A stretch of 61,976 bases of DNA from a virus (taxonomy: Duplodnaviria > Caudoviricetes): positions 1 through 61,976 of the IMG/VR virus record IMGVR_UViG_3300047300_000894. The stretch is one strand, 5' to 3'. The position numbers and the translations under genes were made by a program. The first letter of the stretch is position 1; each line of letters begins with the position of its first letter. The notes below the pieces were generated by a model. That model was not told the DNA's origin and made no database searches. It saw only the letters and a program-made list of their open reading frames with translations. Below are positions 1-57,103 of this stretch, in pieces.

Positions 1-127
1 TTGTGTAAGTCATCTACGAACGACTCTTGGCTAACAACCTTGCTAACTTCTTTAAATGTGTGAGAATTTTCAAGAAGATATGCTATGATATCCTTCTCTA
101 ATAATGTGTCCACTAATGTGGGAAATT
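1..127. repeat. Terminal direct repeat, copy 1 (circular assembly overlap)
   Basis: Bases 1-127 are identical to 61850-61976, and the start of dnaB lies inside the overlap. 127 is a common assembler k-mer. Confidence 0.95.
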
Positions 128-130
128 TAA

Positions 131-823
131 TTACCATTTGTCTGGGATTTGAATTTCAAAACTTGTTTGGTTTACTTGTGCTGTAGTAGGCTGATTAGAT
201 GATGTTGGTATTTCATCCTCCCAAACCCGATGACCGATGTACCTCTCAGGGTCTTTCCGATAGGTAGGGTCTGGTCTTAACTCTTTGTACTTCGGAATGG
301 CTATTAAGATGGCATCTTTTTCAGACTCTTTTAATTTCATCCATTTAGCCTTCGCCTTCTCTTTGCCTACCTTCTTTCCGTACAAATCCCAAAACTCTTC
401 GAATCGGTCATTAATTACTTTTTTATTCTCTTTAATATTAACTTTATTATATGGTGATTGTATAGCATCACCCCCCTGATTGCCCGCAATCACCCCCCCT
501 GATTGTATAGCATCACCCCTTTTGGCTTCGCTTTCCTCTTTTAGTAGGGATAAATCAACTATTTTAATCATTCTGCTACCAAAATCGCCCGAACTTTTTA
601 GTGATGCTTCTCGTGTAATTAAATTCTTTTCTTCCAACTCTTTTATTAGTGATCGTACATACGGAATAGACATCCCTAATGTATCAGCGATATACTGATT
701 CGAAGCAAAGCAATAGCCATTCTTATTAGACAAACTAATGAGAACTCCAACCAATAACTTTGCACTCGAAGACAACTCCTTACTCGAAAGAACTTCCGTA
801 GGAATTATTGCATACCACTTCAT
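131..823 (-). CDS. Phage replication initiator (N-terminal winged HTH, lambda O-like layout)
   Basis: N-terminus YAIIP...LSSSAKLL..L..LSNKNGYCFASNQYIA is HTH_36-like. It has an internal iteron linker and a C-terminal FEEFWDLYGKKVGK..A...W domain, and it lies directly upstream of dnaB across the junction. Confidence 0.85.
   Translation of the reverse strand: MKWYAIIPTEVLSSKELSSSAKLLVGVLISLSNKNGYCFASNQYIADTLGMSIPYVRSLIKELEEKNLITREASLKSSGDFGSRMIKIVDLSLLKEESEAKRGDAIQSGGVIAGNQGGDAIQSPYNKVNIKENKKVINDRFEEFWDLYGKKVGKEKAKAKWMKLKESEKDAILIAIPKYKELRPDPTYRKDPERYIGHRVWEDEIPTSSNQPTTAQVNQTSFEIQIPDKW
421..519. promoter_or_regulatory. Putative replication origin: 3 iterons plus AT-rich tract inside the initiator gene
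   Basis: 16-bp pseudo-palindromes TGATTGTATAGCATCA (455-470, 500-515) and TGATTGCCCGCAATCA (477-492) are separated by C6/C7 spacers, with an AT-rich tract at 421-452. Confidence 0.75.
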
Positions 824-1026
824 TATAAACTATTTTGTTCGGCTTCTAAAAATTTAATTTCTCCAACTAACTCTTCAATTTTATTGAGAATAATATCGAA
901 CGCTGACATTTCTGGAGATGCATATTGCATAACCTTCTCCCATTGTGCTAAATCAATCTTGATATGTGCAATCTTTACCTTGCATATAACCCTAAATGCT
1001 TGCTTTTCTATTTCTTCTAAATCCAT
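823..1026 (-). CDS. Hypothetical protein (likely start MDLEEIEKQ)
   Basis: Coupled to the initiator start. The upstream extension of the ORF runs through a terminator-like hairpin. Confidence 0.55.
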   Translation of the reverse strand: MDLEEIEKQAFRVICKVKIAHIKIDLAQWEKVMQYASPEMSAFDIILNKIEELVGEIKFLEAEQNSL

Positions 1027-1030
1027 AGCG

Positions 1031-1070
1031 AAAAAAAACCCCAAGACCTTTGAGGGAAAGAATCTTGGGG
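1031..1070 (-). terminator. Terminator/attenuator-like hairpin in the leader of the replication operon
   Basis: Minus strand reads CCCCAAGA...TCTTGGGG followed by T8. Confidence 0.6.
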
Positions 1071-1130
1071 ATAGGATTTTACCTATTTGTTTCGAGTACA
1101 ATCCCTCAATTGAACTCCAAACTTGGTTTA

Positions 1131-1138
1131 CAAATATA
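1131..1138 (-). promoter_or_regulatory. Bacteroidota -7 promoter element TATATTTG
   Basis: Matches TAnnTTTG and lies intergenic, upstream of the replication genes. Confidence 0.55.
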
Positions 1139-1144
1139 ATACAA

Positions 1145-1438
1145 TTAATTTATTCTTTCACAACTAATTACATTCATAATTGGAATTCCTATCGTTCGTG
1201 TTGAATCAGTAGGATTAGAAAAGATTAATGTTCTATAGTCATCTGTTGCCTCAAGGTACATAGAAACGATTTCTGCATCCCTGTTACCCAATTTATACAC
1301 GACTCTGAACTTATTAATTCGCAACTTCGATTCCGTAGTTAGTTCACGAATGTTTACATTGTGATTCTTGATAGCGTAGATTGGTTTCAATACACCACTA
1401 ACTGATAAATAATTTTGAGCAATTGTTCTGTTTGACAT
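1145..1438 (-). CDS. Hypothetical protein
   Basis: ORF in the tightly packed minus-strand operon. Confidence 0.6.
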   Translation of the reverse strand: MSNRTIAQNYLSVSGVLKPIYAIKNHNVNIRELTTESKLRINKFRVVYKLGNRDAEIVSMYLEATDDYRTLIFSNPTDSTRTIGIPIMNVISCERIN

Positions 1439-1442
1439 AATA

Positions 1443-1934
1443 TTAATTTTTTTTAAGTTTTAAAAGTAAATCTTGTGGATTATCCTTTTCGGTAAATCCG
1501 TACACCCTACCATTTAAATCCCAATGGTAGCACTCATTTGTTCCCTCCCTAAAGGATAGCCATCCAATAATCTGATGACCTTTAGATGCATCGGGATTAA
1601 TTCCACCTATAACTACGGGTTTTAACTCCTTTGTAATTACATCGTAGTATCCCATATCGTACTTCTCTTTGGTGAACTTATACAACCCATTCTTTTTGCT
1701 AACTCCCTTCTCAATGTTCCGTAGTAGCCTCAATCTATCAGATTGATAGGCTGATAAAAACCCCATCACCGATTGAGAGATAGTTAAAGGTAGTTCGCAT
1801 TTCTCGCAAGGCATACTCATCTTCTTGCGATTACTATTAGTAAACAACTTCACTAATTCTTCAGCATTCTGATCGTGTCCACACCATCCACACTTTAATT
1901 TGTGCCTCCGTAAAATATTACTGAATTCTGCCAT
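1443..1934 (-). CDS. Zn-ribbon-containing hypothetical protein
   Basis: CGWC and CEKC cysteine pairs. Confidence 0.65.
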   Translation of the reverse strand: MAEFSNILRRHKLKCGWCGHDQNAEELVKLFTNSNRKKMSMPCEKCELPLTISQSVMGFLSAYQSDRLRLLRNIEKGVSKKNGLYKFTKEKYDMGYYDVITKELKPVVIGGINPDASKGHQIIGWLSFREGTNECYHWDLNGRVYGFTEKDNPQDLLLKLKKN

Positions 1935-2172
1935 ACTTTGTTGTGCTTTTATGTGTTAATGTTAAACAACCTGTTGTTGCATCTACATAGCTGGAATCAA
2001 AATTATCTACCCATTCATCTGCTGAAGGATTTAGTACAATTGCCCTTGAATTGCTGTACCTAATCAAGCTAATTGGCTGTGACTTCAATGATATCCCAAA
2101 CCAAATCATAATTGTAGCGACCAATGTAATAACAAATGCTACTGCCTTAAAAACCCCTTCCTTATCTTTCAT
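1918..2172 (-). CDS. Small membrane protein
   Basis: N-terminal hydrophobic helix. Confidence 0.6.
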   Translation of the reverse strand: MKDKEGVFKAVAFVITLVATIMIWFGISLKSQPISLIRYSNSRAIVLNPSADEWVDNFDSSYVDATTGCLTLTHKSTTKYGRIQ

Positions 2173-2371
2173 TTTTCTTTCCCGTTATGTGTGCTGCGAA
2201 TAAAAATGTCGGCAAACAAACTATTATTGATGCCAATAAATTCTCCTTATCAAATTGATTGTCCGTAAATGGTATCAAACAAAATGCTACGGCAGTTATA
2301 CTACCCGATATAATTTTTAAGTCTTTCATAAAATTGTTCCTTAATGCCATATGATTGTTCGTTAATTTCAT
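2162..2371 (-). CDS. Small two-TM membrane protein with three alternative in-frame starts
   Basis: Two hydrophobic segments. ATGs at 2371, 2350 and 2329. Confidence 0.55.
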   Translation of the reverse strand: MKLTNNHMALRNNFMKDLKIISGSITAVAFCLIPFTDNQFDKENLLASIIVCLPTFLFAAHITGKKNER

Positions 2372-2389
2372 ATGATTGTTCCTTAATAG
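2327..2389. repeat. 3 x 21-bp imperfect tandem repeat
   Basis: CATAAAATTGTTCCTTAATGC / CATATGATTGTTCGTTAATTT / CATATGATTGTTCCTTAATAG. Confidence 0.85.
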
Positions 2390-2475
2390 ATTACTAATAA
2401 AAAATAGGCAACTGCGACAAAAATTAATCCCAATCCCAATTCCAAATAGTCACTCGTAGTTACTTGCTTTTTCAT
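2383..2475 (-). CDS. 30-aa single-TM microprotein (not in ORF track)
   Basis: MKKQVTTSDYLELGLGLIFVAVAYFLLVIY. Its start overlaps the upstream stop codon. Confidence 0.5.
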   Translation of the reverse strand: MKKQVTTSDYLELGLGLIFVAVAYFLLVIY

Positions 2476-2759
2476 TATTTTTTTGTGATTTCAAATTTAA
2501 CTGCTTGTGCTGATCCATCTTCAGCATCCTCAATTTCAACTAAAAGTTCTCCATCATATGTAAATCTGATGTCAAACACTCGATGACCTAAAGAGAATGG
2601 ATACCATACCACTCCGAAATCATATGGAGAGAATACAACTTCTGTTCTCTCCTCTTTGCCTTCAATCCTTGCTGATATTTTAGCAACCATAGTGAACGGA
2701 TTCACCGATACATTAATCTTTGTCATTTCCTTGAAATTTAATTTTTGAATTTGGTTCAT
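2475..2759 (-). CDS. Hypothetical protein
   Basis: ORF in the operon; start position uncertain. Confidence 0.6.
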   Translation of the reverse strand: MNQIQKLNFKEMTKINVSVNPFTMVAKISARIEGKEERTEVVFSPYDFGVVWYPFSLGHRVFDIRFTYDGELLVEIEDAEDGSAQAVKFEITKK

Positions 2760-3129
2760 CTACGATAAATCCAGTTATAAGATTTTGAATTAACATCTGT
2801 TCTGCTATTTGATGTGCTTGTTGTAATGGCATCTTGATTGAACGACAACCCTTCTGTACCATCTCTGTCATAACATTCACATCATTGTAGTATACATCTA
2901 CCCAATCGGCTAAATATCGATTACTTCTTGACAGATTAAACCAATAATCGAATCCCTTTTCCGACAAATCAAACACAAAAGATTGTGCCATAAAATGCTG
3001 AAATGATGTAGCCTTTGTTTCAAGAAATCTCTCTAATGAAAATCCTACATTTTGCTTATGGTACTCTGCTTCCCATAATGCTCGTTCCTCGTAAGTTAAG
3101 AGGTCATAAAAATCTTTTTTCGTACTCAT
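2713..3129 (-). CDS. Hypothetical protein
   Basis: ORF preceded by the AACCAAAC leader motif. Confidence 0.7.
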   Translation of the reverse strand: MSTKKDFYDLLTYEERALWEAEYHKQNVGFSLERFLETKATSFQHFMAQSFVFDLSEKGFDYWFNLSRSNRYLADWVDVYYNDVNVMTEMVQKGCRSIKMPLQQAHQIAEQMLIQNLITGFIVDEPNSKIKFQGNDKD

Positions 3130-3219
3130 TTTATTGTTTGGTTAAATTTAAAATTAAAAAATTGCGTTTGGGATCAGTCTATTGCGTAGACGAAATGACC
3201 AATTTTGTAGACGAATAAG

Positions 3220-3867
3220 CTACAATACAGCTCCCCATTGTTCTGCCATAGCATCAGCTATGCCTTGAAATGTCTTGCTCCTTAATCCTCTCCGTTCTTC
3301 GGGAGACTTCGCTTTCTGCAATGCTTCGTAATACCACATCGCTTGCCTTTTAGGTTTCCCTGTTTTGCCATCTATCCATTCCTTGAACTCGCCTTTATCT
3401 ACCATATTTGTTGGCTCTAACTTCGGTAAGTTCTTTAACCACAAACAAGTAGACTTGCTCGCTGAATCGCCAAACCAATATGGCTGAACGATTTGGTCGG
3501 GTTTCCGTAGCTTGGATGAAATAACGCTTATGGGGTTCTCAATAGCTATTCGTGGAATGTCTGCCATCATCAGCTTGTAGACAAACAATAACGCTTGTCG
3601 CTGATTCTCATACCTCTCCTCGTTAGGACTCCCATCTTTATTGTACAGATGCCTTGCTCCACTTACGGACAGATATGTACAAGGGGGATGTGCAATCATT
3701 AAATCCCAACCTTTGTCGATAACTTCGAACACATCTTGTTGGTAATGCCATTCGGGATGCCCCCCACTACAAGGTAGGATGTCGCAACTAAATGCCTCAA
3801 ATCCCAATTTTCTAAATGCTAATGTTACAGCTTGACTCTCTTCGCAAGCAACTAATACTCTCTTCAT
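3220..3867 (-). CDS. DNA cytosine-5 methyltransferase-like protein (short phage type)
   Basis: HPPCT catalytic motif IV and ENP motif VI, with a divergent SAM-binding motif VLVACEES. Confidence 0.75.
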   Translation of the reverse strand: MKRVLVACEESQAVTLAFRKLGFEAFSCDILPCSGGHPEWHYQQDVFEVIDKGWDLMIAHPPCTYLSVSGARHLYNKDGSPNEERYENQRQALLFVYKLMMADIPRIAIENPISVISSKLRKPDQIVQPYWFGDSASKSTCLWLKNLPKLEPTNMVDKGEFKEWIDGKTGKPKRQAMWYYEALQKAKSPEERRGLRSKTFQGIADAMAEQWGAVL

Positions 3868-3885
3868 AATATTTTTTAGGTTAGT

Positions 3886-4179
3886 CTAAATTTTAAATAA
3901 ATCGCCCAGTGGCTGATCGTGAACTGCTTCAATAATTTTATCGTGAACCTCCTTGATAGCTTGTTGCTCGCCAACAATTCTGTTACGATTGGCATACTTG
4001 ATTAGCCATTCCATCTGCTTTTCGGAAACTTCGCCCATCCAAAAATGGATATCGCAAATAGTTACGATAGCCTTGTCCTCTTGATTTGCATTACGATTCT
4101 TTGCGAACTTCTTAATCGTTTGTACATAACTGCTCTTTAATGAGGAATCTTTGCCCTCTAAAATCTCTCGTACATTCAT
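3886..4179 (-). CDS. Hypothetical protein
   Basis: ORF in the operon. Confidence 0.6.
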   Translation of the reverse strand: MNVREILEGKDSSLKSSYVQTIKKFAKNRNANQEDKAIVTICDIHFWMGEVSEKQMEWLIKYANRNRIVGEQQAIKEVHDKIIEAVHDQPLGDLFKI

Positions 4180-4181
4180 AG

Positions 4182-4535
4182 TTATATAAATCTGATTGTG
4201 TAATTACTTATAAATAAATCTCCACTATTATGCTCTCGCTGAAAGCCCTCTAAAGACCATACATTTCCATCTTCTTCGGACATAGCGATAAACTCCTCAT
4301 CCGAATACAAGCTATGATGCTTTGTAAACATACCATCATCTACTGCATACACCCGTACTTCTTTAGGACTCTCAATCCCTTGTGCAACTTGCTCGATAGC
4401 ATCAATCATATCTACGATATGCTTATCGACTGATTCTTCCTCATCGTATTCAGATACTTGAGTAATCCATTCTTGTGCCTCGTATAAATGCACAAGCAAT
4501 TCTTCTCTGCTAAATTTTTCTGTTGAATTTTCCAT
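4182..4535 (-). CDS. Acidic hypothetical protein
   Basis: D/E-rich ORF in the operon. Confidence 0.65.
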   Translation of the reverse strand: MENSTEKFSREELLVHLYEAQEWITQVSEYDEEESVDKHIVDMIDAIEQVAQGIESPKEVRVYAVDDGMFTKHHSLYSDEEFIAMSEEDGNVWSLEGFQREHNSGDLFISNYTIRFI

Positions 4536-4547
4536 TTTGATTATTAA

Positions 4548-4928
4548 TTAAGAATATGAACTATAAGATTTAGTAATTAAAATATCATTAAAAAAGTTTT
4601 CTAATGTTACGATATCCATTTCATAGATATACTTGCCATCAGCTTGGTCTCCATCTAAATATTCAAGATAAAAATAGATTGTCTTTCCTTCCCCTTCGTT
4701 ATGGAAATCTAACCATTCGACTTCGAATGCAGTAACCATATAAACATCTTCAACTTCAAATGGCTGATTAATCAAATATTCTCCAAACAGATTATTGTAA
4801 TTTACACACGACATAATATCCTCATTAAGCTCCTTCCTAATTTGTGATATTTTCATTTTGTACAAATCTTTCTTTGTAAGCAAATTCTCGTTTTCCATTC
4901 TATTATGGTTTAAAAGTTTACAATACAA
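4548..4928 (-). CDS. Acidic hypothetical protein
   Basis: ORF; the true start is probably the internal MENENL. Confidence 0.6.
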   Translation of the reverse strand: MYCKLLNHNRMENENLLTKKDLYKMKISQIRKELNEDIMSCVNYNNLFGEYLINQPFEVEDVYMVTAFEVEWLDFHNEGEGKTIYFYLEYLDGDQADGKYIYEMDIVTLENFFNDILITKSYSSYS

Positions 4929-5161
4929 TACCCTATGAATTGCGAATCGACAAACAAAAACTCATCGTTTACATTTGTGCAAAAATCCCCAACCTATTCG
5001 TAGCCTAACTTATGTAGGCAACAGAAATCAGAAAATTGATTTGGTGTGAACTCTTTGCCTTGTGCATCATCAAGGATTTTTCTATCCACATTACTTGGGT
5101 TTCCGATAATAATCATTGTCTTTTTCATTTCGTTTATTTCGTTTATAGGTTAAAATCTGTG

Positions 5162-5398
5162 TTAGTTAAATTTTAATGTAACATTTGATGTATCTACATC
5201 TCCGTAGCTATCCAATTCATACTGCTGTCCCTCCACTAATACTTCTTCGGGAATGTAACCTACATTATCTAATAGGTCTTCCAACTTAATCGTATATACC
5301 TTATCGATTATTAGGGATTCTATAACTAATGATGTGAAATCGATATCATCGTTATACCAATTCAAGAATTTTACTCGGTCAATAATTAAAGTTTTCAT
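5162..5398 (-). CDS. Small acidic hypothetical protein
   Basis: D/E-rich, with an A-rich leader. Confidence 0.65.
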   Translation of the reverse strand: MKTLIIDRVKFLNWYNDDIDFTSLVIESLIIDKVYTIKLEDLLDNVGYIPEEVLVEGQQYELDSYGDVDTSNVTLKFN

Positions 5399-5424
5399 TT
5401 TGATAAAAATTTAAGGGTTAAAAA

Positions 5425-5835
5425 TTAGAATCTACTTCCGTAATTGGAATCTACTTCTGTGAATTGTATTGAGATATTATCTGATGATGCATCTGCTCCA
5501 ACTACCTCACATATATCTTCCCAATATGTATCTCTCCTAAAATCATCTGCATACAGATTTAGAATATTTACCTTCTTTGGGGATTGAGGAACAAACATCT
5601 TATACTCCTCATTCAAGAATTCATATGCTTCAATCTTCTCATCGGTAGACATCGCAAACCATTCGAATCTTAAATCGGTAATAATCTCCTCGATTTCCTC
5701 ATCTGTGCGATTAGACATAAGAGATAACACATCCTCTTGATGTATCTTACTTAACGCTCCGTACGGCATACATCCGTACCACTCGTTTAACTTTGTGTTT
5801 AAATCCTCGTAGGACTGGTGAATTGAACTTTTCAT
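5425..5835 (-). CDS. Acidic hypothetical protein
   Basis: First ORF after the promoter at about 5890. Confidence 0.7.
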   Translation of the reverse strand: MKSSIHQSYEDLNTKLNEWYGCMPYGALSKIHQEDVLSLMSNRTDEEIEEIITDLRFEWFAMSTDEKIEAYEFLNEEYKMFVPQSPKKVNILNLYADDFRRDTYWEDICEVVGADASSDNISIQFTEVDSNYGSRF

Positions 5836-5889
5836 AACTTTTAAATTTTGATTGTTTTGTTTATGACTGGTGTCTGGTTAAATGACATA

Positions 5890-5920
5890 CAATATTAAAA
5901 CATTAGATTTAAAATTGCAA
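5890..5920 (-). promoter_or_regulatory. Putative promoter TTG-N20-TAATATTG
   Basis: One mismatch to TAnnTTTG, with correct spacing to TTG. Confidence 0.5.
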
Positions 5921-5994
5921 CAATATATTAGGAAAAACTTTAATATCTGTGACTTTTCTCGCATAAAATCCATTCATACTTCACGCAATACGCA

Positions 5995-6645
5995 TTTGGG
6001 ATCTGATATTTTATGTAAATTTTAGTGACAAAATTTTTAACCTGTACCAGAGAAATTCATCCAGCCAGCTCGCCTGCACCAGCCCTGCAGGAGTCAATAA
6101 AAATTTTTAGACTCGCCTAAAAAAGTCTTTTCAACTTGGTCGGTTCACCAGCTCTGTACCAGTGAGTAACTTACATTTCACCTACATTTTACCTACTTAA
6201 TCAAATTTTGCATTCGGGTTCGGTCGTTGTTGATAGTGGTTTTGGTTTTTTGGCGATTTCCCCTGTTTCACCAGAAAAAATTTGGGATCTGTGACCTGTA
6301 TCTTGCAGAAATAATTTTAGACTCGCCTAAAAAACTTTATTGATTTAACCTGTATTTGCACCAGATGGGATCTTTTGTGATCATGAACTTCGCCAGCTGG
6401 GGTGCCTGTACCAGAGTAAAAGAAATTTTTAGACTCGCCTAAAAAATCTTTTGATGGGATCCGTTTTGCCCAGAGGGATCAGACCTGTAAAAATCAAATT
6501 TAACCTGTAGCCAGAAATTTTAAGAAATTTTTAGACTAACCTAAAAAATCCTTGAAATCTAACCTGTATCCACCAGAAGAAAACCTGTGTGATCAGAATC
6601 CTTGCAAAAAAATCTGTGGGATCAGAATCCTTGCAAAAAAAAAAC
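5995..6645. repeat. Non-coding repeat array: 4 x TTTTAGACT(CG/AA)CCTAAAA plus dense CCTG, CCAG and GATC words
   Basis: Copies at 6105, 6315, 6427 and 6529. A 22-bp direct repeat GATCAGAATCCTTGCAAAAAAA occurs at 6591 and 6620. No ORF of 60 aa or more in any frame. Confidence 0.9.
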
Positions 6646-6844
6646 AAATGATTAATCAGATTATCAGCAATTAATGACATCTAATCCCTTGAGAATCGAT
6701 TATATGGATAGAATGTGATGTTGGATGCTGATATCTTGATTCTAAACGATTGTAGGATGCAGTAGAACGATTATGATGCTACAGAAGAATGATTGTGATG
6801 TCGTAGCAGATTTGTTGTTGATAGTGGAAACGATTGCATAGGGC

Positions 6845-6876
6845 AAAAAAAATCCCCCACATTTCTGTAGGGGATT
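6845..6876 (-). terminator. Rho-independent terminator after the GATase gene
   Basis: Minus strand AATCCCCTACA-GAAA-TGTGGGGGATT followed by a T run. Confidence 0.85.
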
Positions 6877-6896
6877 CTGTAATCAATGAGATGGTA

Positions 6897-7751
6897 TTAG
6901 ATGCAATACCATTTTAGATTCTCCATCTCTTCCCATTCGGAATCAGTCAATGATGCTACATCTTTAGACTTGAGATAGTCGTATCTCTCTTGCCATTCAT
7001 CATAGATAGCATCATCCTCATCTTGGCTATAGTATTCGTACCATTTCTTATCATTAGCCTTAAGGTCATCCTTAAATGGGATTGTAGGATTATTCTCTAC
7101 CTTCGGATAATGCACGATGGTTTGTATAGCTTGTTTGGTGTATGTCGGTTTGACATTGTTGTATACCTTCTTGCCACCATAATCAATATAGTTAACCTTC
7201 TTGTATGTAGCATTAGAAAACCAACATCCTTCGAATTCATCATCTCTTTGACCTAACTGCTCATTGACAATCGTGTATTCATTATAGGCATTCAAGAAGA
7301 TTAGCTTACTGCTACCAATGAACTTTTTGATAAGACCAATGATTGCATCATTGTAAAGGAAATCAGATGGTAGCTTACGAAGATAGATTTCATTGAACAA
7401 GTTCGTATCTGACTTCTTTGCATCAATCCCATTCAGTTCACCAATCACTCCATTGTGAACGAATGCAATATCCTTGTTAACTTGGAATGGATGGCAGTTC
7501 GTTTCGTTTACTCCACCACTTGTGCTGATACGGAAATGTAGTACGACATTGGATTTCGGGAAATCTCTTCTGACCTCAACATATTTGTTGTAGAATGCCT
7601 CAAAGGATTTGACCTCTTTGAAGATATGTAATTGATTGTTTGAAACATCTGTCCAAATCATCCCTCCACCATCTCTGTTGTTATCCCAACAATTTTTGAT
7701 AAGAGATTTTTCGAATGTAACATTTGGGGAATTTAAAATTGCGATACACAT
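6897..7751 (-). CDS. Class II (Ntn) glutamine amidotransferase
   Basis: N-terminal Met-Cys nucleophile and the motifs HFRISTSG, NCHPF, HNG and SDT. Confidence 0.9.
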   Translation of the reverse strand: MCIAILNSPNVTFEKSLIKNCWDNNRDGGGMIWTDVSNNQLHIFKEVKSFEAFYNKYVEVRRDFPKSNVVLHFRISTSGGVNETNCHPFQVNKDIAFVHNGVIGELNGIDAKKSDTNLFNEIYLRKLPSDFLYNDAIIGLIKKFIGSSKLIFLNAYNEYTIVNEQLGQRDDEFEGCWFSNATYKKVNYIDYGGKKVYNNVKPTYTKQAIQTIVHYPKVENNPTIPFKDDLKANDKKWYEYYSQDEDDAIYDEWQERYDYLKSKDVASLTDSEWEEMENLKWYCI

Positions 7752-7793
7752 AATATTAATTGTTTTGATTGTTTAAAAAATTGATTTGTTAAT

Positions 7794-7816
7794 GGGGAGA
7801 TTGCTCTCCCCTTTTT
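7794..7816. terminator. Intergenic hairpin (GCAA tetraloop on the minus strand, T run on the plus strand)
   Basis: GGGGAGA-TTGC-TCTCCCC-TTTTT. Confidence 0.6.
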
Positions 7817-7819
7817 GGT

Positions 7820-9514
7820 TTATAATGAACGAATTGCTGAACGAAGATTTGTGAAATCATATGTTGCACAATCTCTGTCGAAATCAAGTGCCATATCGAT
7901 TGAATCTAACATTCTTCTCTTCAGTTTATCAAGAGTAAAAATCTTGAGCATATGCTTGTGTAAATCAGATGAAGAATCACATAACATATTCGCCACTTCG
8001 ATGAATGAATCTGTTGGATTGTTTGCCATAATTCGTAACAATCCGATTCGCCATTCCAATGTCTTGATATTCTCTACCAATGGAAAGATTCTGAATTCGA
8101 TTCTCTTGTCCATAATCTTAACTGCTTGGTATTTTGTGTTTACAGAACTCTTCATTCTGTACTTCTCTTTTGCCTCACAATATGTGATGTTAATTCTCTT
8201 CTTGTAGATGGCATAGAACAATGGCATATATCCACTAATCATCTCAAATGTATCTTGTCCACTTGTGTAACTTCTGCTGAAATGGATGTGACCACCACAA
8301 GCTTCCTTGAATCTGCCCAAGTTTGCCTTGTCCTCATTTGAGTCAATCAAGTTAGGGAATCTTGTCTCAATTGCTTTTGCCTCATTGATAAGGTCATCAG
8401 TAAACAATGGATAACAAGGTGATACCAATTCGTATCCGATTGTATCATCAAGACTGCCATCTCTTTCCTTCTTCCATCCGAATTCGTGATAGATTTCATT
8501 TGCTCCATTAACTGCTCCCAATCGTGATTGTTTTTCAATCTCTACACCAATCTTGAATACAACATTCATTGGCATATTGATTGTCTTCACTTGTTGCGAT
8601 GAATGATAACCGAAACGCTCATTTCTAAAGTTACGAGATGCACAATCTACCATATCGTGCGATGCATCTACATCTCTTCTGCAATGTGAACAAAAGACTT
8701 GTGTATATCCATTTGCCACAGCAGATTCTCTGTCGAAATATCTTTTGCCATTGTGCATTGTATTGCGAAATTCTCTGTTGATATTCACCAATTCTGCAGT
8801 TACTTGCAATGGTACAATTTCACCTTCATTGAATCTCCACAATCTTCTTGATTCCATATAGAAATTAACCAATACACCATCCAACATTGTATGAAATTCT
8901 GTCGCAGAATCGATGTGAATTAATCTGTCGCTGTAGGCATCCACTACCAATGAACGATGTGTATTCTGATAGTAAATTGGCAAAGAGAATGAACTAACTT
9001 GTGCCATTCTGATGTAGTCATTTGCATCAACATATGATGGCGAATTGTAGCTACCATTTCTGCTGTATACATATTTCCAATCAGATTCATTCGTACGAAC
9101 TAATCTCAAATCTCCCCACATATTTCTATCAGCTACCTTAAGGTCAATCCATCTGAATTCATCCATTGACCAAACAAATCCCGCATTAAATCGCTGAACT
9201 TCCGAACGGAATGTGTATGTCTTCCCATTGTATTCGATTTGAACTACGGGACTATTACTTGCAGTCAAGGATGCTTTTGAGATGTAATCCCCTCCACCAT
9301 TTGGTGAACGATGGATTCTCAATGCATCTGTCTTCAACACATATGTTGTTTCCCAATCCAAGCCATTCCAATTGGAACAAGCTACGATTTTCTTTTGCTC
9401 ATTTGAATCAGCGACATACACATAATTGTATCTGCTGAAGATTCTGCCATCCATCAATTGCGATGATTCATTTGCATTGATTACTTCCCCGAAGATTGTT
9501 GTTACTTGTGACAT
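7820..9514 (-). CDS. Putative amidoligase (COOH-NH2 ligase fold) with a long N-terminal extension
   Basis: Motifs IGVEIE, DGSL, GYELVSP, CGGHIH, KYQAV and IEFR; adjacent to the GATase-II gene. Confidence 0.85.
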   Translation of the reverse strand: MSQVTTIFGEVINANESSQLMDGRIFSRYNYVYVADSNEQKKIVACSNWNGLDWETTYVLKTDALRIHRSPNGGGDYISKASLTASNSPVVQIEYNGKTYTFRSEVQRFNAGFVWSMDEFRWIDLKVADRNMWGDLRLVRTNESDWKYVYSRNGSYNSPSYVDANDYIRMAQVSSFSLPIYYQNTHRSLVVDAYSDRLIHIDSATEFHTMLDGVLVNFYMESRRLWRFNEGEIVPLQVTAELVNINREFRNTMHNGKRYFDRESAVANGYTQVFCSHCRRDVDASHDMVDCASRNFRNERFGYHSSQQVKTINMPMNVVFKIGVEIEKQSRLGAVNGANEIYHEFGWKKERDGSLDDTIGYELVSPCYPLFTDDLINEAKAIETRFPNLIDSNEDKANLGRFKEACGGHIHFSRSYTSGQDTFEMISGYMPLFYAIYKKRINITYCEAKEKYRMKSSVNTKYQAVKIMDKRIEFRIFPLVENIKTLEWRIGLLRIMANNPTDSFIEVANMLCDSSSDLHKHMLKIFTLDKLKRRMLDSIDMALDFDRDCATYDFTNLRSAIRSL

Positions 9515-9554
9515 AGTTTTAAAATTTTGATTGTTTATGGATTAGTTTAGCTTA

Positions 9555-9839
9555 TCAGTTTTGAGATGCATTATCGATGAAATAATCGAATTCGAATTCT
9601 TCTCTCCATTCGTGAATGGTTTGTTCATCCTTGAATTCTTGCCCATTGTATGTGGCAGTCATTGGTACATCTTCTGCCTTGTCGGATGACAACATCAACA
9701 AGGTGATTCCGTTCATTGTAACCCATCCAATTACACAGATGATTGCTTCAGCGAATGCATTGTGATAGATGCTGAAGAATGACATTGGTAGAAAGATTTG
9801 AGATGCTACCAAGATTGCGATTGTTTCTAACTTTTTCAT
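9555..9839 (-). CDS. Two-TM membrane protein, first gene of the early operon
   Basis: Likely start MKKLETIAIL at 9839, two hydrophobic helices and an acidic tail. Confidence 0.65.
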   Translation of the reverse strand: MKKLETIAILVASQIFLPMSFFSIYHNAFAEAIICVIGWVTMNGITLLMLSSDKAEDVPMTATYNGQEFKDEQTIHEWREEFEFDYFIDNASQN

Positions 9840-9956
9840 TTTGTTTGAATTTAAATTGTTTATGATTTGATTGATTTTGCCATTCGGGATGCTACACTGG
9901 AAATTGTCATTTGGTGAATCTGTTGACCTTGCAGTTTTGCCATCTCTTACGACATT

Positions 9957-9986
9957 CAAATATAACACAAATGATTTAATTTACAA
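9957..9986 (-). promoter_or_regulatory. Bacteroidota sigma70-type promoter TTG-N19-TATATTTG
   Basis: Consensus -33 and -7 elements with 19-bp spacing. Confidence 0.75.
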
Positions 9987-10527
9987 GGGATGTTTGCAGA
10001 TAAATTTTACCTATGCTATAGGTGATTTGTGGTGGCAGATTTTGGTGGGAAAAAATTTTGCTTTCTTGTACCTATGTGATATCGGATTGATGTGGTTATG
10101 GTCTTTTGTTTTATCGGTTATGTTCGAACGGATTGTTCGTTCTCTCCTTGTGTACGATGGGGCAAAAAATTTGAGACATTGTAGGGATCAGACACAAACC
10201 AGTGTTAAAACATTTGTATGAGATCGCAGTAAAATGTGGCTTCAGACATTGGAAATTAGGTTTTTGGATTGCAAAAGCGAAACCCACTCACTTCGGAATT
10301 CTGATTTCGCGAATTTGGTTGACCGGATCCCAATAATATATATAACCCTAAGAGCATAAGCCTACGCTACAAAAAAATAAACACATAGCAAACATAAGCA
10401 CTCGTTACTCGCTACACTTAATCCTTGCCACTACAGACAACTTAAATACATATGCCGACACAACATATCATTTAAGACAAAAATCTTTGCTTACAATCAA
10501 ATGCTATGAAAATTGCTAATAATGCTA

Positions 10528-10535
10528 TAACTTTG
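10528..10535 (+). promoter_or_regulatory. -7 element TAACTTTG at the head of the late block
   Basis: TAnnTTTG 26 bp before the ATG at 10562. Confidence 0.6.
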
Positions 10536-10561
10536 GATTTATATAACCAAACAGAATAATT

Positions 10562-11209
10562 ATGCTATCATACGAGCTTACTCAAGCATCGCCCAACTCT
10601 TTGATTGTAGAGATTGGTGCACAGTACGATGACACAGTTCAATATGGGTCATTGCAAATATTTATAGACCCTTTATTTAAACCCACACACAACGCAAGGA
10701 TATATGGAATTGTTAAAGCAGTACCTAAAGGAAAGTGCTATAATGAGGATGGTTTTGAAATTGAAACAGATGTACGGGTGGGTGACAAAGTATACTTCCA
10801 CTACCTTGCTACATTCGATGAGAATGCTTGTGTATATGGTAACTATTATCGCATTCCTTACTGCTGGATTTTTTGCGTTGTCAGGGACTCTGATATTATA
10901 CCTATTGGTGGGTGGACGTTCTGCGAGAAGATTGTTGAAAATGAAGATGAATTTGAGGAGGTAGAGGTTGATGGAATAAAGATTTCAGCGGTCAAAAATT
11001 CTTTTGGTCTCATTACATCTGTCGCAAAAAAAGACTCGATTAAGAAGGCAAGATTAGCACATATTGGGAAACCATTAAAAAATGTTGATGCACTTGATGT
11101 GAAAGCAGGTGAAATTGTTGTAATAGATAAGAATACAAACTTTGAAAATGTGATTGAAGGAAAAACCTACTATACGATACGCCAAGGTGATATTTTATGT
11201 AAAAACTAA
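10562..11209 (+). CDS. GroES/Cpn10-like co-chaperonin with two tandem domains
   Basis: Domain 1 GIVKAVPKG...VRVGDKVYF; domain 2 ARLAHIG...VKAGEIVV...IEGKTYYTIRQGDIL. Confidence 0.75.
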   Translation: MLSYELTQASPNSLIVEIGAQYDDTVQYGSLQIFIDPLFKPTHNARIYGIVKAVPKGKCYNEDGFEIETDVRVGDKVYFHYLATFDENACVYGNYYRIPYCWIFCVVRDSDIIPIGGWTFCEKIVENEDEFEEVEVDGIKISAVKNSFGLITSVAKKDSIKKARLAHIGKPLKNVDALDVKAGEIVVIDKNTNFENVIEGKTYYTIRQGDILCKN

Positions 11210-53287: not shown

Positions 53288-53914
53288 TTAACCTTTGTTC
53301 TTACAGAAATTCATTACCTCCAAGCAGAACTCGTGAGGAATTTTACTCCTATTGTAAGCCCCCTTTAATCCTTGTGTCCCTGTCTGCGAACCTCGTGGTG
53401 CAGAAACGTGGCAAGGGTCTCCGTTTTTGCAATGAGGCTTTGGAGAATATGCTTCGGCATTACTCCAAATATCCGTAGGCTTCATCCTTGTATCTCCATA
53501 TTGGCAGTAAGTAACTGTATCTCGTTTAAGATGCTCAAGCTGTGGCATCTTCCTCATTAATCCTCGTGGATTCTCAATAAAGAAAAACTTTGGATTAATC
53601 TGCTCAATTAAATTTAGCGTTGCATCAAGCAATTCCAAGCCAAGTCTCGCTGTATCAGTATATGGAACATAATTTCCTTTTGTACTACCTTTCCAATGTC
53701 TACCTATAGATGCTACAGAAAATGCTGTACAAGGCGGAGAAGCCCACACTACATCGGGTTGAAATGGTAGCTTCGATAAGTCAAACTCTCTGATATCGCA
53801 AGCATAATCTATCCCATCAAATGGCAGTAGGTCAGATGAAAATACCTCCATTCCCAACTCTTCTGCTGCCTTACCGATTGAGCGGGAACCAGCAAATAAT
53901 TCTAATACCTTCAT
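53288..53914 (-). CDS. DNA cytosine-5 methyltransferase (short)
   Basis: LELFAGS, WASPPC, IENP and KPT motifs. Confidence 0.85.
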   Translation of the reverse strand: MKVLELFAGSRSIGKAAEELGMEVFSSDLLPFDGIDYACDIREFDLSKLPFQPDVVWASPPCTAFSVASIGRHWKGSTKGNYVPYTDTARLGLELLDATLNLIEQINPKFFFIENPRGLMRKMPQLEHLKRDTVTYCQYGDTRMKPTDIWSNAEAYSPKPHCKNGDPCHVSAPRGSQTGTQGLKGAYNRSKIPHEFCLEVMNFCKNKG

Positions 53915-56036: not shown

Positions 56037-56750
56037 TTAAAAAGGAAGGTCAGATACATCTTCTTTAGACATAGCATCATCAAACTTCGGAGCAACTAAA
56101 GGCTCTGCTTCTTGTTCTGCGTGTATTAACTCCTCATTAGAACTAACTTCTTTACGAGAGGCAAAATAAGCTGTAAGCTCATCGTATATTACATCTGCCT
56201 TCTTGGAGACATCTGCTGGAATTTCTTTGCCCAAAACGAATGTAGGTACAGAATATTTAACAGAACCCTTCTTCTCATCAGAGGCTCCTGAAATACCAAC
56301 GTAGTTAGTTAAAAACTTCTTACGATTCTCTGTAGCAAAGTTTGACCAAGCTTGTAAAACTGCTCCTTTGAAAGATAAGTTAAGCAACTTACCATCAATG
56401 ATAACATACATAGATAGGTTGTAGTGACCACCAATAGATAAAATATCAGCCTTGATGTTCTGATAGATACCGCTAACTAAATCTCCTTTTGATTTGAATG
56501 AGCGTACAAAGAATTCCTCCTTGCGAGTATCTTTGATTTCGTTCGACCAAATCGAAGATTGTGTTTTGTCGTGATAACCACGAATACTTGCAAACTCTTC
56601 ACAATGAATAAACTGAAGAGGGACATTAACTTTTTTGTTAGTTTGACTTTCCTTGTCATAGTAAGTGAAACATTTGTCGTTAGAAGACCACGATAAGTAG
56701 GCTTTAACTGGACTTGGGATGGACTGCTTGTAAGCATCTGATCTTGCCAT
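56037..56750 (-). CDS. SSB/recombination-associated protein
   Basis: Acidic C-terminal tail ending SDLPF; replication-module context. Confidence 0.55.
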   Translation of the reverse strand: MARSDAYKQSIPSPVKAYLSWSSNDKCFTYYDKESQTNKKVNVPLQFIHCEEFASIRGYHDKTQSSIWSNEIKDTRKEEFFVRSFKSKGDLVSGIYQNIKADILSIGGHYNLSMYVIIDGKLLNLSFKGAVLQAWSNFATENRKKFLTNYVGISGASDEKKGSVKYSVPTFVLGKEIPADVSKKADVIYDELTAYFASRKEVSSNEELIHAEQEAEPLVAPKFDDAMSKEDVSDLPF

Positions 56751-56775
56751 TGTATTGTTTGGTTTGGTTTAAAAA

Positions 56776-56955: not shown

Positions 56956-56973
56956 TTTGTTATTAATCTTTAG

Positions 56974-57004
56974 CAAATGTAACACAAAGGATTTATAATA
57001 CAAA
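56974..57004 (-). promoter_or_regulatory. Promoter TTTG-N19-TACATTTG
   Basis: Full Bacteroidota consensus. Confidence 0.7.
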
Positions 57005-57103
57005 ATATTTAATGAAATATTATTCAAAAAAAAATACCCCACATTGTAGAGTATTTTTATTGTAATAAACCATAAACAAATTAAGTAATAGACAATCAAA
57101 ATC

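What the first reader, a model, noticed from the sequence alone, without database searches (positions are those of the whole stretch)
5995..9990. An early operon free of CCWG, CWGG and GATC sits next to a polarised non-coding array built from those same words
Seen (manual scan): from about 6645 to 9895 (membrane protein, amidoligase, GATase) I find no CCAG, CTGG, CCTG, CAGG or GATC, although tens would be expected by chance. Immediately downstream, 6000-6625 holds about 13 CCAG, 11 CCTG and 8 GATC on the plus strand, against only one CTGG and one CAGG. It also holds one of the genome's rare CATG sites (6382). The words reappear on the far side (9897, 10186, 10199, 10223, 10326). Known: first-entering phage DNA often lacks restriction sites, and T5 pauses injection at a repeat-rich signal. 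Inference: this may be a staged-entry or anti-restriction device, with a clean leader expressed first and then an array acting as injection stop, decoy for a host site-specific protein, or methylation-sensitive switch for the two phage C5-MTases. It is my best candidate for an undescribed system.
Basis: partly seen in the sequence, partly recalled or inferred. Interest (0 to 1): 0.85.

Follow-up and report, generated by a model that had tools for sequence, protein, structure and literature searches.

The report
Site-purged phage leader with word array
The first genes of this uncultured freshwater phage have been scrubbed of short DNA words that restriction enzymes cut, much as in phage T5, yet a gene-free stretch in their midst is packed on one strand with two of those same words, and what reads them there is still unknown.

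Summary
CCWG (both strands) and GATC are absent from 6620-9897 and 3915-5815. A synonymous-codon shuffle of the 8 early genes expects 17 CCWG and 23 GATC against 3 and 1 seen, all at the edges. The 646-bp array holds 24 CCWG, 2 CWGG and 8 GATC; after AAAA these are its three most enriched 4-mers.

The clean zone is the core of nested word-free zones (ACGT, ACNGT, CTNAG, GCNGC, CCGC and others). All are anchored at 9.9-11.4 kb, at the head of the leftward early arm. Twenty-one of 26 relatives show the CCWG purge at the same place, and all 26 purge GCNGC. This is the known kind of site avoidance in first-entering or early DNA (T5, T7-like phages). This scan has reported it before on other DNA.

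The array is the unusual part. It is itself purged of seven other word families, has no ORF, RNA fold or host promoter, and carries a palindrome that recurs 7 nt before a compact C5-methyltransferase gene exactly where the clean zone ends. Its function is inferred, not shown. I read it as a word-specific, protein-read cis element. Staged entry, decoy and methylation switch remain untested: only contigs were available, so no termini, methylome or RNA could be read.

The parts
1..10900 (.). Near half of the nested word-free zones on the leftward (early/middle) arm. The zones continue across the assembly junction to about 56300.
   Evidence: Circular gaps: ACGT 56299->10916, ACNGT 57116->10621, CTNAG 245->10348, GCNGC 2193->11432, CCGC/GCGG 484->9181. 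CCWG 3906->9897 and GATC 3915->10186, both apart from the array.
56300..61976 (.). Far half of the ACGT- and ACNGT-free zone (helicase and nuclease genes of the same arm).
   Evidence: The last 127 bases repeat the first 127, an assembly overlap.
9957..9986 (-). Promoter of the first operon, of the Bacteroidota type (TTG, spacer, TAnnTTTG).
   Evidence: One of 16 full matches in the genome. A near-twin lies at 56974-57003. The consensus itself is recalled, not tested.
9555..9968 (-). First gene: a small protein with hydrophobic stretches. The likely true start is the ATG at 9943, downstream of the promoter.
   Evidence: Translation. No Pfam, PHROG or NCBIfam match. It holds one CCWG, at 9897.
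7820..9514 (-). 564-aa protein, possibly an amidoligase.
   Evidence: No Pfam, PHROG or PDB match. Language-model neighbours include clusters where 25% of members carry Amidoligase_2 (a lead only). 0 CCWG, 0 GATC.
6897..7751 (-). Class II glutamine amidotransferase, 284 aa.
   Evidence: GATase_4, E = 3.7e-7. 0 CCWG, 0 GATC.
6841..6880 (-). Intrinsic terminator that closes the operon.
   Evidence: 13-bp stem, -19.3 kcal/mol, then eight U; z = -3.4. Conserved in L003 and L004. The simple scan did not list it.
5995..6640 (+). The word array: 24 CCWG, 8 GATC (6 as GGGATC), four palindrome copies, pairs of CCWG 6 bp apart, and a 29-bp tandem repeat.
   Evidence: No ORF (61), no Rfam family (16), no fold signal (42, 43), no host-type promoter (83).
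6104..6124 (+). Palindrome P, copy 1 (TTTAG, six bases, CTAAA core with A/T arms).
6314..6334 (+). Palindrome P, copy 2.
6426..6446 (+). Palindrome P, copy 3.
6528..6548 (+). Palindrome P, copy 4 (centre differs by two bases).
6226..6239 (+). First copy of a 14-nt repeat (second copy at 6814-6827). Part of the non-coding skeleton shared with L003, L004 and L006.
5890..5921 (-). Inferred promoter of the next early genes (7 of 8 match to the -7 box).
   Evidence: Read. Not found by the exact pattern.
3886..5835 (-). Second clean block: five small genes of unknown function.
   Evidence: ORFs, no families. Free of the five words from 3915 to 5815.
3875..3890 (-). Fifth copy of palindrome P, 7 nt upstream of the methyltransferase start, at the exact end of the clean zone.
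   Evidence: Same position in G001 and G002.
3220..3867 (-). MT1: compact (215 aa) C5-cytosine methyltransferase-like protein.
   Evidence: Atlas neighbours named cytosine methyltransferase, scores 0.98-0.99. Paralogue of MT2, E = 4e-7, with shared PPC and ENP motifs. No Pfam hit.
53288..53914 (-). MT2: compact (208 aa) C5-cytosine methyltransferase.
   Evidence: PF00145, E = 7e-9; TIGR00675, weak.

Best explanation
The window is a complete, circularly assembled 61.8-kb genome of an uncultured freshwater podovirus. Its host is probably a member of the Bacteroidota.

The leftward arm starts at a divergent region 1.2-2.2 kb upstream of the terminase genes. It is DNA that must work before the phage is protected from host restriction, most likely because it is the end that enters the cell first. 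Selection has therefore removed restriction-type words from it, in nested zones that all begin at that point. The first 6 kb is the most thoroughly cleaned and additionally lacks CCWG and GATC. It consists of a host-promoter-driven operon (small membrane protein, putative amidoligase, glutamine amidotransferase), a terminator, and five small genes.

The 646-bp array between the two gene blocks is not a gap in that cleaning, because it is cleaned of seven other word families. It is a cis-acting DNA element whose CCWG pairs, GGGATC words and A/T palindromes are read word by word by a DNA-binding protein of phage or host. It probably serves as an operator or insulator, or as an entry-control platform, of the early arm. 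The words can serve as addresses there precisely because the surrounding DNA holds none.

Shown: the counts, the nesting, the clade-wide recurrence, the anatomy, and the link of the palindrome to the methyltransferase gene. Inferred: restriction as the selective agent, polar entry, and protein binding at the array.
For: Purge:
- Codon-shuffle deficits in the early genes.
- A gradient of observed/expected for CCWG, GATC and ACGT: late genes 0.83, 0.28, 0.48; rest of the arm 0.36, 0.24, 0.19; early zone 0.17, 0.04, 0.
- No other 3.3-kb window of the genome lacks any common 4-mer.
- Both strands are depleted across relatives: sense 245 seen against 878 expected, antisense 189 against 508.
- Three of the four most depleted words of the form abNcd are palindromes (GCNGC, ACNGT, CTNAG), although only 13 of the 133 classes are palindromic.
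- All the zones share a right edge at 9.9-11.4 kb.
- 21 of 26 relatives are depleted in CCWG at the same place. 26 of 26 are depleted in GCNGC (0-2 seen, 7-24 expected). In 13 of 26 the CCAG-free gap ends 1241-1781 bp before the terminase gene.
- 13 distant marine relatives show no depletion (ratios 0.87-1.47).
- A canonical host-type promoter and a strong terminator frame the first operon.
- In print: restriction hits T5-like and T7-like phages only through sites in the first-injected DNA (PMC10644984, passages; PMC12455610, abstract and Discussion).

Array:
- Enrichment and strand bias.
- 0 of seven other purged word families against 7.7-10 expected, matched by 0 of 2000 shuffles.
- No ORF, RNA family, fold signal or host promoter.
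- The palindrome folds weakly as RNA (-1.6 to -5.2 kcal/mol, no better than shuffles), so it is more likely read as DNA.
- The palindrome occurs almost only in early-arm non-coding DNA of the window and five relatives.
- 8 of the genome's 9 GGGATC lie in early-arm intergenic DNA, all on one strand.
- The layout operon, array, clean block, palindrome, MT1 is the same in G001 and G002.
- The skeleton is kept in L003 and L006 while the filler changes.
Against: - No terminus, entry order, transcript or protein binding was observed.
- If restriction removes CCWG and GATC from the genes, 32 such sites only 3.3 kb into the same DNA should be lethal unless something covers or modifies them. That something is postulated, not found.
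- No known restriction enzyme recognises bare CCWG (recalled). The genome already lacks CCWGG altogether (1 site).
- Five of 26 relatives do the opposite and load their early DNA with CCWGG (31-39 sites against 2-12 in the late DNA). A simple restriction reading does not explain this.
- Palindromes are not significantly over-represented among the ten most depleted words (Fisher p = 0.17 for 4-mers, 0.059 for abNcd words).
- The variable spacing of the words is unusual for a single sequence-specific protein.
- Reversed words sit beside and inside the array (5815, 5867, 5874, 6088, 6397).
Confidence: 0.42

Rival explanations
1. Methylation patch. GATC and CCWG are the targets of the two compact phage C5-methyltransferases. 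The array is then a densely methylated patch on virion DNA that tells parental DNA from newly replicated DNA and so switches early functions or packaging, as GATC methylation does at the pac site of phage P1 (recalled).
For: - MT1 and MT2 occur together only in the window, G001 and G002 (2 of 10 relatives tested for each). These are the genomes with GATC in their arrays (8, 3 and 2 sites).
- 21 of 31 relatives have no GATC in 11-22 kb.
- The palindrome of the array recurs 7 nt before the MT1 start, and the GATC- and CCWG-free zone ends there.
- There are two exempt word families and two enzymes.
Against: - L006 has ten one-strand CCTG copies in the homologous spot and no MT1, MT2 or PF00145 hit. 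L004's genome served as the positive control.
- The CCWG purge exists in relatives without these enzymes.
- L010 and L022 carry many GATC but no MT1, MT2, PF00145 or PF01555.
- If the sites were protected by methylation, the genes would not need to avoid them.
- The enzymes' specificities are unknown.
Confidence: 0.15
2. Injection stop or entry checkpoint. DNA entry is driven by host RNA polymerase from the promoter at 9957-9986. It stalls at the terminator (6841-6880) with the array at the entry point, as at the untranslated repeat region (iss) of T5, until products of the first operon allow the rest to enter.
For: - The order promoter, three genes, strong terminator, then a gene-free repeat region, inside the most purged DNA.
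- T5 has a 1.66-kb untranslated, repeat-rich stop region among site-free pre-early genes (10.1101/866236, abstract and passages).
- For T5-like phages it is unknown whether sites in that non-coding region are exposed during the first step (PMC10644984, legend of Fig. 6).
Against: - The genes beyond the array (3915-5815) are as clean as those before it.
- The array is itself purged of seven other word families, so it is exposed to the same selection.
- The filler is not conserved among relatives, unlike the T5 stop region.
- Many relatives have the purge without any array.
Confidence: 0.1
3. Tolerated slippage product. The reader of CCWG-type words needs two sites in opposite orientation (the logic by which T7 escapes EcoP15I). 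A one-strand array that grew by replication slippage is then harmless and has no function.
For: - 24:2 strand bias. ACCT and CTGT each occur with 0 reverse complements on the + strand (10:0 and 12:0).
- In L006 the array is a pure tandem hexamer run.
- Near-identical strains differ by a 30-bp deletion at 6580 and a 36-nt insertion at 6198.
- Strand bias as an escape from Type III enzymes is in print (Kruger 1995, cited in PMC10644984; seen only in the reference list and one passage).
Against: - GATC is a palindrome and cannot be made harmless by orientation.
- Reversed words lie at 5815, 5867, 5874, 6088 and 6397.
- The genes avoid both orientations, which this logic does not require.
- The order of the words differs between the four units, so the words were not simply copied with the unit.
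Confidence: 0.12
4. Non-coding RNA locus. The gene-free gap is transcribed into an abundant early RNA, as are two long early intergenic regions of the Cellulophaga crAss-like phage phi14:2.
For: The phi14:2 intergenic regions g004-g005 and g005-g006 are transcribed above most genes from the earliest time point, function unknown (10.1101/2020.03.07.982082, passages). The terminase of this phage is distantly related to those of Flavobacterium, Cellulophaga and crAss-like phages (31% identity at best).
Against: - No host-type promoter in the array.
- No fold signal on either strand (z = 0.16 and -0.94).
- No Rfam family.
- Across relatives the purge of the words acts on both strands, pointing to DNA rather than RNA.
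Confidence: 0.08
5. Repeats beside a genome end or packaging site. The physical ends lie in or next to the array, as short repeat arrays flank the terminal repeat of T7 (recalled), or the GATC words form a P1-like pac site.
For: - One-strand short repeats and GATC-containing hexamers, including TGATCA at 6379.
- Clean DNA on both sides of the array.
Against: - The array lies 4.8 kb from the small-terminase-position gene.
- All word-free zones are anchored at 9.9-11.4 kb, not at the array.
- Contigs from four runs bridge the array without a break, which is weak evidence because contigs cannot show ends.
Confidence: 0.06
6. No selection on sites. The arm has a different composition because it was acquired from elsewhere or has a different codon usage.
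For: The arm is mosaic among relatives and has its own codon usage.
Against: - The shuffle keeps each gene's protein and codon usage and still expects 17, 23 and 11 sites.
- The same words are missing from non-homologous genes at the same place in 21 of 26 relatives.
- The zones are nested on one anchor that lies inside the first rightward gene.
Confidence: 0.04

Closest known systems
First-step-transfer (pre-early) DNA of T5-like phages with its untranslated stop region (iss)
   Same: The leading genes lack restriction sites that are tolerated elsewhere in the genome. Gene-free, repeat- and palindrome-rich regions lie among those genes. The leading genes are highly variable between relatives (10.1101/866236; PMC10644984).
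   Different: - No long terminal repeat, two-step transfer or A1/A2-type genes are shown here.
- The purge is graded over about 16 kb rather than confined to one block.
- The array is made of words its neighbours avoid and its filler is not conserved, whereas the T5 region is conserved and carries DnaA boxes.
- The genes beyond the array are equally clean.
Leading region of T7-like phages (Murciavirus versus a Type I system; T7 with Ocr)
   Same: Only motifs in the first-injected DNA decide sensitivity. Host-promoter-driven early genes sit at the leading end (PMC12455610, abstract and Discussion).
   Different: Those studies concern single long motifs. Here many 4-5-bp words are purged in nested zones, and nothing like the array is described there.
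Strand bias of Type III sites (all EcoP15I sites of T7 in one orientation)
   Same: One-strand placement of an asymmetric restriction-type word.
   Different: There the bias runs through the whole genome. Here it is confined to 646 bp, and elsewhere both orientations are absent (early genes) or both are present (late genes).
pac site of phage P1 (recalled, not read here)
   Same: A cluster of short GATC-containing repeats whose methylation state could gate a DNA transaction.
   Different: P1's site lies in its packaging gene and depends on adenine methylation. This array is 4.8 kb from the terminase genes and its methylation is untested.
Early intergenic non-coding RNAs of crAss-like phage phi14:2
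   Same: Long gene-free gaps inside the early region of a podovirus that infects the Flavobacteriia.
   Different: Transcription is unknown here. No shared sequence was looked for.

Membership tests
T5-type first-step-transfer region | Restriction-type sites are absent from the leading DNA but present elsewhere in the genome | tested here: met
T5-type first-step-transfer region | Fixed genome end next to the purged DNA, and entry in two steps | not testable with these tools
   Only contigs were served. The record is a circular assembly with a 127-bp overlap.
T5-type first-step-transfer region | Untranslated repeat region conserved among relatives | tested here: inconclusive
   The palindrome and the 14-nt repeat skeleton are shared by L003, L004, G002 and L006. 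The filler is not, and blastn finds no match over 6000-6838.
T5-type first-step-transfer region | Homologues of the pre-early genes dmp, A1 and A2 | not tested
   The early proteins had no informative Pfam or PHROG hit apart from the amidotransferase and one weak sub-threshold DUF4279 match. No search was made with T5 proteins.
T7-type transcription-coupled leading region | Host promoter at the leading end pointing inward, with an early terminator downstream | tested here: met
   Promoter 9957-9986, terminator 6841-6880. That this is the leading end is inferred.
Type III-refractory strand bias | All copies of the asymmetric site in one orientation along the exposed DNA | tested here: not met
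   The ratio is 24:2 within the array, but reversed copies lie at 5815, 5867 and 5874, and the late arm holds both orientations.
P1-type methylation-gated pac site | Cluster of GATC repeats inside or beside the packaging genes | tested here: not met
   8 GATC in 646 bp, but 4.8 kb from 11477-14042.
P1-type methylation-gated pac site | The sites are methylated and cleavage depends on that | not testable with these tools
   No raw reads or methylome.
Structured non-coding RNA or type III antitoxin-like repeat RNA | Regular tandem units or a conserved fold | tested here: not met
   Unit spacings are 210, 112 and 102 bp with shuffled content. z = 0.16 and -0.94. No Rfam hit.
C5-cytosine DNA methyltransferases (for MT1 and MT2) | Catalytic Pro-Cys motif and Glu-Asn-x motif in a SAM-dependent fold | tested here: met
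   Both motifs align between MT1 and MT2. PF00145 matches MT2. MT1 rests on Atlas neighbours only. A target-recognition domain of normal size is lacking (208-215 aa).

The most novel reading that the evidence does not exclude
The array is a purpose-built cis device made from the very words that the leading DNA must otherwise avoid. Sister phages that instead fill their whole early region with CCWGG, and carry one-strand CCTGG arrays in the divergent region, would use the same reader in another way. This would be a new class of sequence-encoded counter-defence or timing signal in phages of Bacteroidota.
Probability: 0.12. Interest if true: 0.85.

Novelty: new variant of a known kind. Interest (0 to 1): 0.55.

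Why it matters
The nested word-free zones give a sequence-only way to find the leading end of an uncultured phage. They also give a way to read off which short words its hosts' defences recognise. Here GCNGC is purged in all 26 relatives examined, and CCWG and ACNGT in most. Because relatives show both regimes for the same word (purged, or ten-fold enriched), the clade is a natural experiment on an unknown reader of CCWG(G).

Tried and rejected
Searches that found nothing:
- blastn of 5800-10400 against cultured phages: no match.
- Exact scan of IMG/VR for the 20-nt palindrome: none.
- Related loci sought with the 564-aa protein: none.
- tRNA scan: none.
- Rfam: only chance-level hits.
- PDB sequence searches with the 564-aa protein and with the C-terminal third of the 3011-aa protein: none.

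Ideas tested and dropped:
- Structured RNA: z = 0.16 and -0.94.
- Small proteins in the array: stop-to-stop frames of 20-57 aa without starts or conservation.
- Tandem host promoters: no TTG-spacer-TAnnTTTG in the array. The sigma-70 scan found fewer sites than shuffles did (16 against 32).
- The palindrome as an RNA terminator: -1.6 to -5.2 kcal/mol, no better than shuffles.
- An RNA-level reader of the words: both strands are depleted across relatives.
- Purge caused by the array's own reader: many relatives have the purge and no array.
- One-strand 'non-coding' segments at the edges of L012, L013, L016, L021 and L024 turned out to be helicase genes cut by the locus end.
- A virion RNA polymerase: one DYDND motif in the 3011-aa protein and nothing more. 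Left open.
- A methyltransferase behind the CCWGG-rich relatives: no PF00145 in 5 records, 4 of them incomplete. No PF01555 in 5 records.

Termini and expression:
- No RNA holder was listed, and all 24 runs are kept as contigs.
- Laying four of them gave no starts or ends of molecules.
- The 'linear' record G002 ends in a 630-bp overlap of 88% identity, which I take for an assembly artefact.
- Positions where relatives' contigs end show no common point.

Not used: structure prediction, fold search, complex prediction, the search for homologous proteins, the search of protein representatives and the look-up of encoding contigs. Supplementary files of the phi14:2 preprint (coordinates of its non-coding RNAs and promoters) were closed and might bear on the RNA rival.

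Full report
What the window is. The window is a whole IMG/VR virus record of 61,976 bases. Its last 127 bases repeat its first 127, and the repeat lies inside a helicase gene. It is therefore a circular assembly and its true ends are unknown. Genes run rightward from 10562 to 53287: terminase large subunit 12033-14042, portal 14045-16354, an SU10-type adaptor, and a 3011-aa protein. They run leftward from about 9968 through the assembly junction to 53288: an HTH initiator, a DnaB helicase, a PD-(D/E)XK nuclease and methyltransferases. The nearest cultured terminases, at 31% identity, belong to Flavobacterium phages, followed by Cellulophaga, Tenacibaculum and crAss-like phages. The runs that hold the DNA are labelled freshwater or aquatic.

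The observation. The five words have 509 sites in the genome, a mean spacing of 122 bp. The two longest gaps are 6620-9897 and 3915-5815, so the clean DNA lies on both sides of the array. Among all 136 strand-symmetric 4-mers, CCAG/CTGG and CAGG/CCTG are the two most depleted in the zone: 0 seen against 21.5 and 17.0 expected from the rest of the genome. I shuffled synonymous codons within each of the 8 early genes, which keeps both the proteins and the codon usage. The shuffle expects 17.3 CCWG, 23.0 GATC and 11.2 ACGT; 3, 1 and 0 are seen, and none of 1000 shuffles is as low. The survivors sit at the edges (9897, 5815, 3906 and 3915). In the array, once AAAA is set aside, the three most enriched 4-mers are CCAG, CCTG and GATC. 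None of 2000 dinucleotide shuffles reaches the observed 24 CCWG or 8 GATC.

The clean zone is the core of something larger. No other 3.3-kb window of the genome lacks any common 4-mer. The first three windows also lack ACGT, CGTC, CCGC or CGGC. On the circular map the largest gaps are:
- ACGT 56299->10916 (16.5 kb)
- ACNGT 57116->10621
- CTNAG 245->10348
- GCNGC 2193->11432
- CCGC/GCGG 484->9181
- CCWG 3906->9897 and GATC 3915->10186, both apart from the array.

All right-hand edges fall between 9.9 and 11.4 kb, some of them inside the first rightward gene. The left-hand edges differ, so the zones are nested on one anchor. Observed/expected values rise with distance from the anchor. For CCWG, GATC and ACGT they are 0.17, 0.04 and 0 in the early zone, 0.36, 0.24 and 0.19 in the rest of the arm, and 0.83, 0.28 and 0.48 in the late genes. 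CTAG, GCGC and GGCC are absent genome-wide. CGCG, CATG, CCGG and CCWGG have 2, 3, 4 and 1 sites. Of the four most depleted abNcd words, three are palindromes (GCNGC, ACNGT, CTNAG), although only 13 of the 133 classes are palindromic. By my own arithmetic this has a chance of about 0.003. The preset top-ten Fisher tests were not significant (p = 0.17 and 0.059). That these words are sites of known type II enzymes is recalled, not tested.

Relatives. A terminase search returned 31 close relatives (73-88% identity, genomes of 62-66 kb) and 48 distant ones (35-40%). Five close relatives (L005, L015, L022, L029, L032) had too little upstream DNA and were left out. Of the remaining 26, 21 are depleted in CCWG in the 6 kb that lies 2-8 kb upstream of the terminase gene (ratios 0.03-0.61, p no higher than 4e-4). 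Five (L008, L009, L010, L014, L031) are enriched, with 31-39 full CCWGG sites there against 2-12 in their late DNA. Both strands are depleted: sense 0.28, antisense 0.37. GCNGC is depleted in all 26 (0-2 seen, 7-24 expected). ACNGT is depleted in most. CTNAG and ACGT are depleted only in some lineages. In 13 of 26 the CCAG-free gap ends 1241-1781 bp before the terminase gene; in the window it ends at -2136 and in L004 at -2213. Most of these relatives do not share the window's early genes at the DNA level. Only L003, L004, L006, L007 and L030 carry the operon, at about 70% identity. So the purge goes with the place, not with the genes. Thirteen distant marine relatives show none of it (ratios 0.87-1.47), which also serves as a control for the measure.

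Anatomy of the early arm. A full match to the Bacteroidota promoter form lies at 9957-9986 on the minus strand. It is one of 16 in the genome, with a near-twin at 56974-57003. It implies a start at the ATG at 9943 for the first gene. Three genes follow: a small protein with hydrophobic stretches; a 564-aa protein with no family hit and only a language-model lead to amidoligases; and a class II glutamine amidotransferase. A 13-bp hairpin followed by eight U closes the operon (-19.3 kcal/mol). Then come about 200 bp without the words, the array, an inferred promoter at 5890-5921, five small genes, a fifth copy of the palindrome at 3875-3890, and, 7 nt further on, the start of a 215-aa gene.

The methyltransferases. 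That 215-aa protein (MT1) has no Pfam hit. Its nearest Atlas clusters are named cytosine methyltransferases (0.98-0.99). It is a paralogue (E = 4e-7) of the 208-aa PF00145 protein at 53288-53914 (MT2), and the two share the Pro-Cys and Glu-Asn-Pro motifs. Both are much shorter than usual for the family. MT1 and MT2 occur together in 2 of 10 relatives searched (G001 = L004, G002 = L005), at 88-93% identity, well above their surroundings. These are the relatives whose layout matches the window: clean operon, array with palindromes, clean block, palindrome, MT1. They also carry GATC (17 and 15 sites in their loci). By contrast, 21 of 31 close relatives have no GATC at all in 11-22 kb. One of the two enzymes therefore plausibly acts on GATC. 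Against this, L010 and L022 are rich in GATC and have neither enzyme, nor any PF00145 or PF01555 hit.

The array.
- It has four copies of an A/T-armed palindrome (three of them identical over 20 nt) at spacings of 210, 112 and 102 bp, pairs of CCWG 6 bp apart, six GGGATC, and a 29-bp tandem repeat.
- The order of the words differs from unit to unit, so they are not passive copies.
- It has no credible ORF, no Rfam family, no fold signal on either strand and no host-type promoter.
- The palindrome is too weak to be an RNA terminator.
- The palindrome is almost confined to early-arm non-coding DNA in the window and in five relatives, where the backward-read control gave 0-1 hits.
- Eight of the genome's nine GGGATC lie in intergenic DNA of this arm, all on one strand.
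- The homologous gap in L003, L004, L006 and G002 keeps the palindrome, a twice-repeated 14-nt block and the terminator. Its filler changes: ten tandem CCTG hexamers in L006, a short CTG run in L003, and 8 CCWG with 3 GATC in L004.
- Contigs from three other freshwater runs, about 95% identical, bridge the array and differ by a 30-bp deletion at 6580 and a 36-nt insertion at 6198.
- Most telling, the array contains none of seven other purged word families (ACGT, ACNGT, CTNAG, GCNGC, CCGC, CGTC, CGGC). Between 7.7 and 10 are expected, and none of 2000 shuffles is empty. The array is under the same prohibition as its neighbours, with a word-specific exemption for CCWG and GATC.

What it most likely is. 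For the clean DNA the best-supported reading is restriction-site avoidance concentrated on the DNA that is exposed first. The nesting on a single anchor that lies partly inside a rightward gene fits a position effect (distance from a leading end) better than a transcript-class effect. In print, T5-like phages resist Type I and II systems unless the site lies in the first-step-transfer DNA (PMC10644984, abstract and passages). Murciaviruses are restricted only through motifs in the first-injected region (PMC12455610, abstract and Discussion). I put this part at about 0.8.

For the array the evidence excludes more than it establishes. It is not neutral filler, not shielded from selection, not coding, not a folded RNA and not a set of host promoters. 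A word-specific exemption calls for a word-specific cover, which means methylation or a protein that binds those words. Methylation cannot be the general answer, because of L006. I therefore commit, at about 0.35, to a protein-read cis element (operator or insulator, or entry control). The words are usable as short addresses there because the surrounding DNA holds none. The overall figure of 0.42 reflects both parts.

What speaks against this reading.
- Thirty-two sites of words that are apparently lethal in the genes sit 3.3 kb into the same DNA.
- No enzyme is known to me that reads bare CCWG.
- Five relatives enrich CCWGG in the early DNA.
- The binding protein is hypothetical.
- The one-strand placement follows in part from the direct-repeat build, and it is broken by reversed words at 5815, 5867, 5874, 6088 and 6397.

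Comparison with earlier notes of this scan. Site-purged early cassettes with sites left in the junctions have been reported before on other phages (e1-5739397, e1-6063208, e1-6063229). So have early regions enriched in CCWGG (e1-5909904). I confirmed both patterns independently within this one clade, but I did not re-examine those other genomes.

Verdict. The clean zone is a new, unusually well-resolved example of a known kind. The array is a real oddity whose function is inferred only.

Noticed in passing
L008 5900-8500 (also L009, L010, L014, L031): Five relatives do the opposite of the window. Their early 6 kb holds 31-39 CCWGG against 2-12 in the late DNA. The divergent region of L008 carries a one-strand run of about 16 CCTGG against 1 CCAGG. 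No PF00145 methyltransferase was found in their records, which are mostly incomplete.
   Followed up: partly
window 3220-3867 and 53288-53914: Two paralogous C5-methyltransferase-like proteins of only 208-215 aa, with no room for a normal target-recognition domain. They occur together in just 3 genomes of the clade, at 88-93% identity where the flanks are about 70-83%, which suggests a recently exchanged cassette.
   Followed up: partly
L003-L033: 21 of 31 close relatives have no GATC at all in 11-22 kb, and GCNGC is purged from the early arm in all 26 that could be scored. The clade's hosts seem to impose a common core of forbidden words.
   Followed up: partly
window 3170, 5998, 6284, 6367, 6456, 6475, 6618, 10184: GGGATC occurs 9 times in the genome, 8 of them in intergenic DNA of the leftward arm and all on the + strand. 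This looks like a regulatory word.
   Followed up: partly
window 9957-9986 and 56974-57003: Two near-identical promoters of the Bacteroidota form on the leftward arm. They support a Bacteroidota host and host-polymerase transcription of this arm.
   Followed up: no
L006 2514-2573: A pure tandem run of ten hexamers (six of one kind, four of another), each holding CCTG, at the spot homologous to the window's array. It lies inside a spurious 103-aa ORF.
   Followed up: partly
In all four laid runs, contigs match only 11270-11318 and then run on into other sequence, so this is a repeated element. It is a candidate for the packaging or end region.
   Followed up: no
G002 (L082 1-629, L083 last 632 bases): This 'linear' complete record begins and ends with the same 630 bp at 88% identity. 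It is probably two strain variants joined at the circular junction, not a true terminal repeat.
   Followed up: yes
window 5146-5416 and 8762-9064: Strains from other runs lack 269 bp covering the 78-aa ORF. They also carry a diverged replacement of equal length inside the 564-aa gene.
   Followed up: no
window 42390-51425: The 3011-aa protein has one DYDND motif at residue 2639 and no PDB sequence match for its last 912 residues. Whether it holds a virion RNA polymerase module is open.
   Followed up: partly
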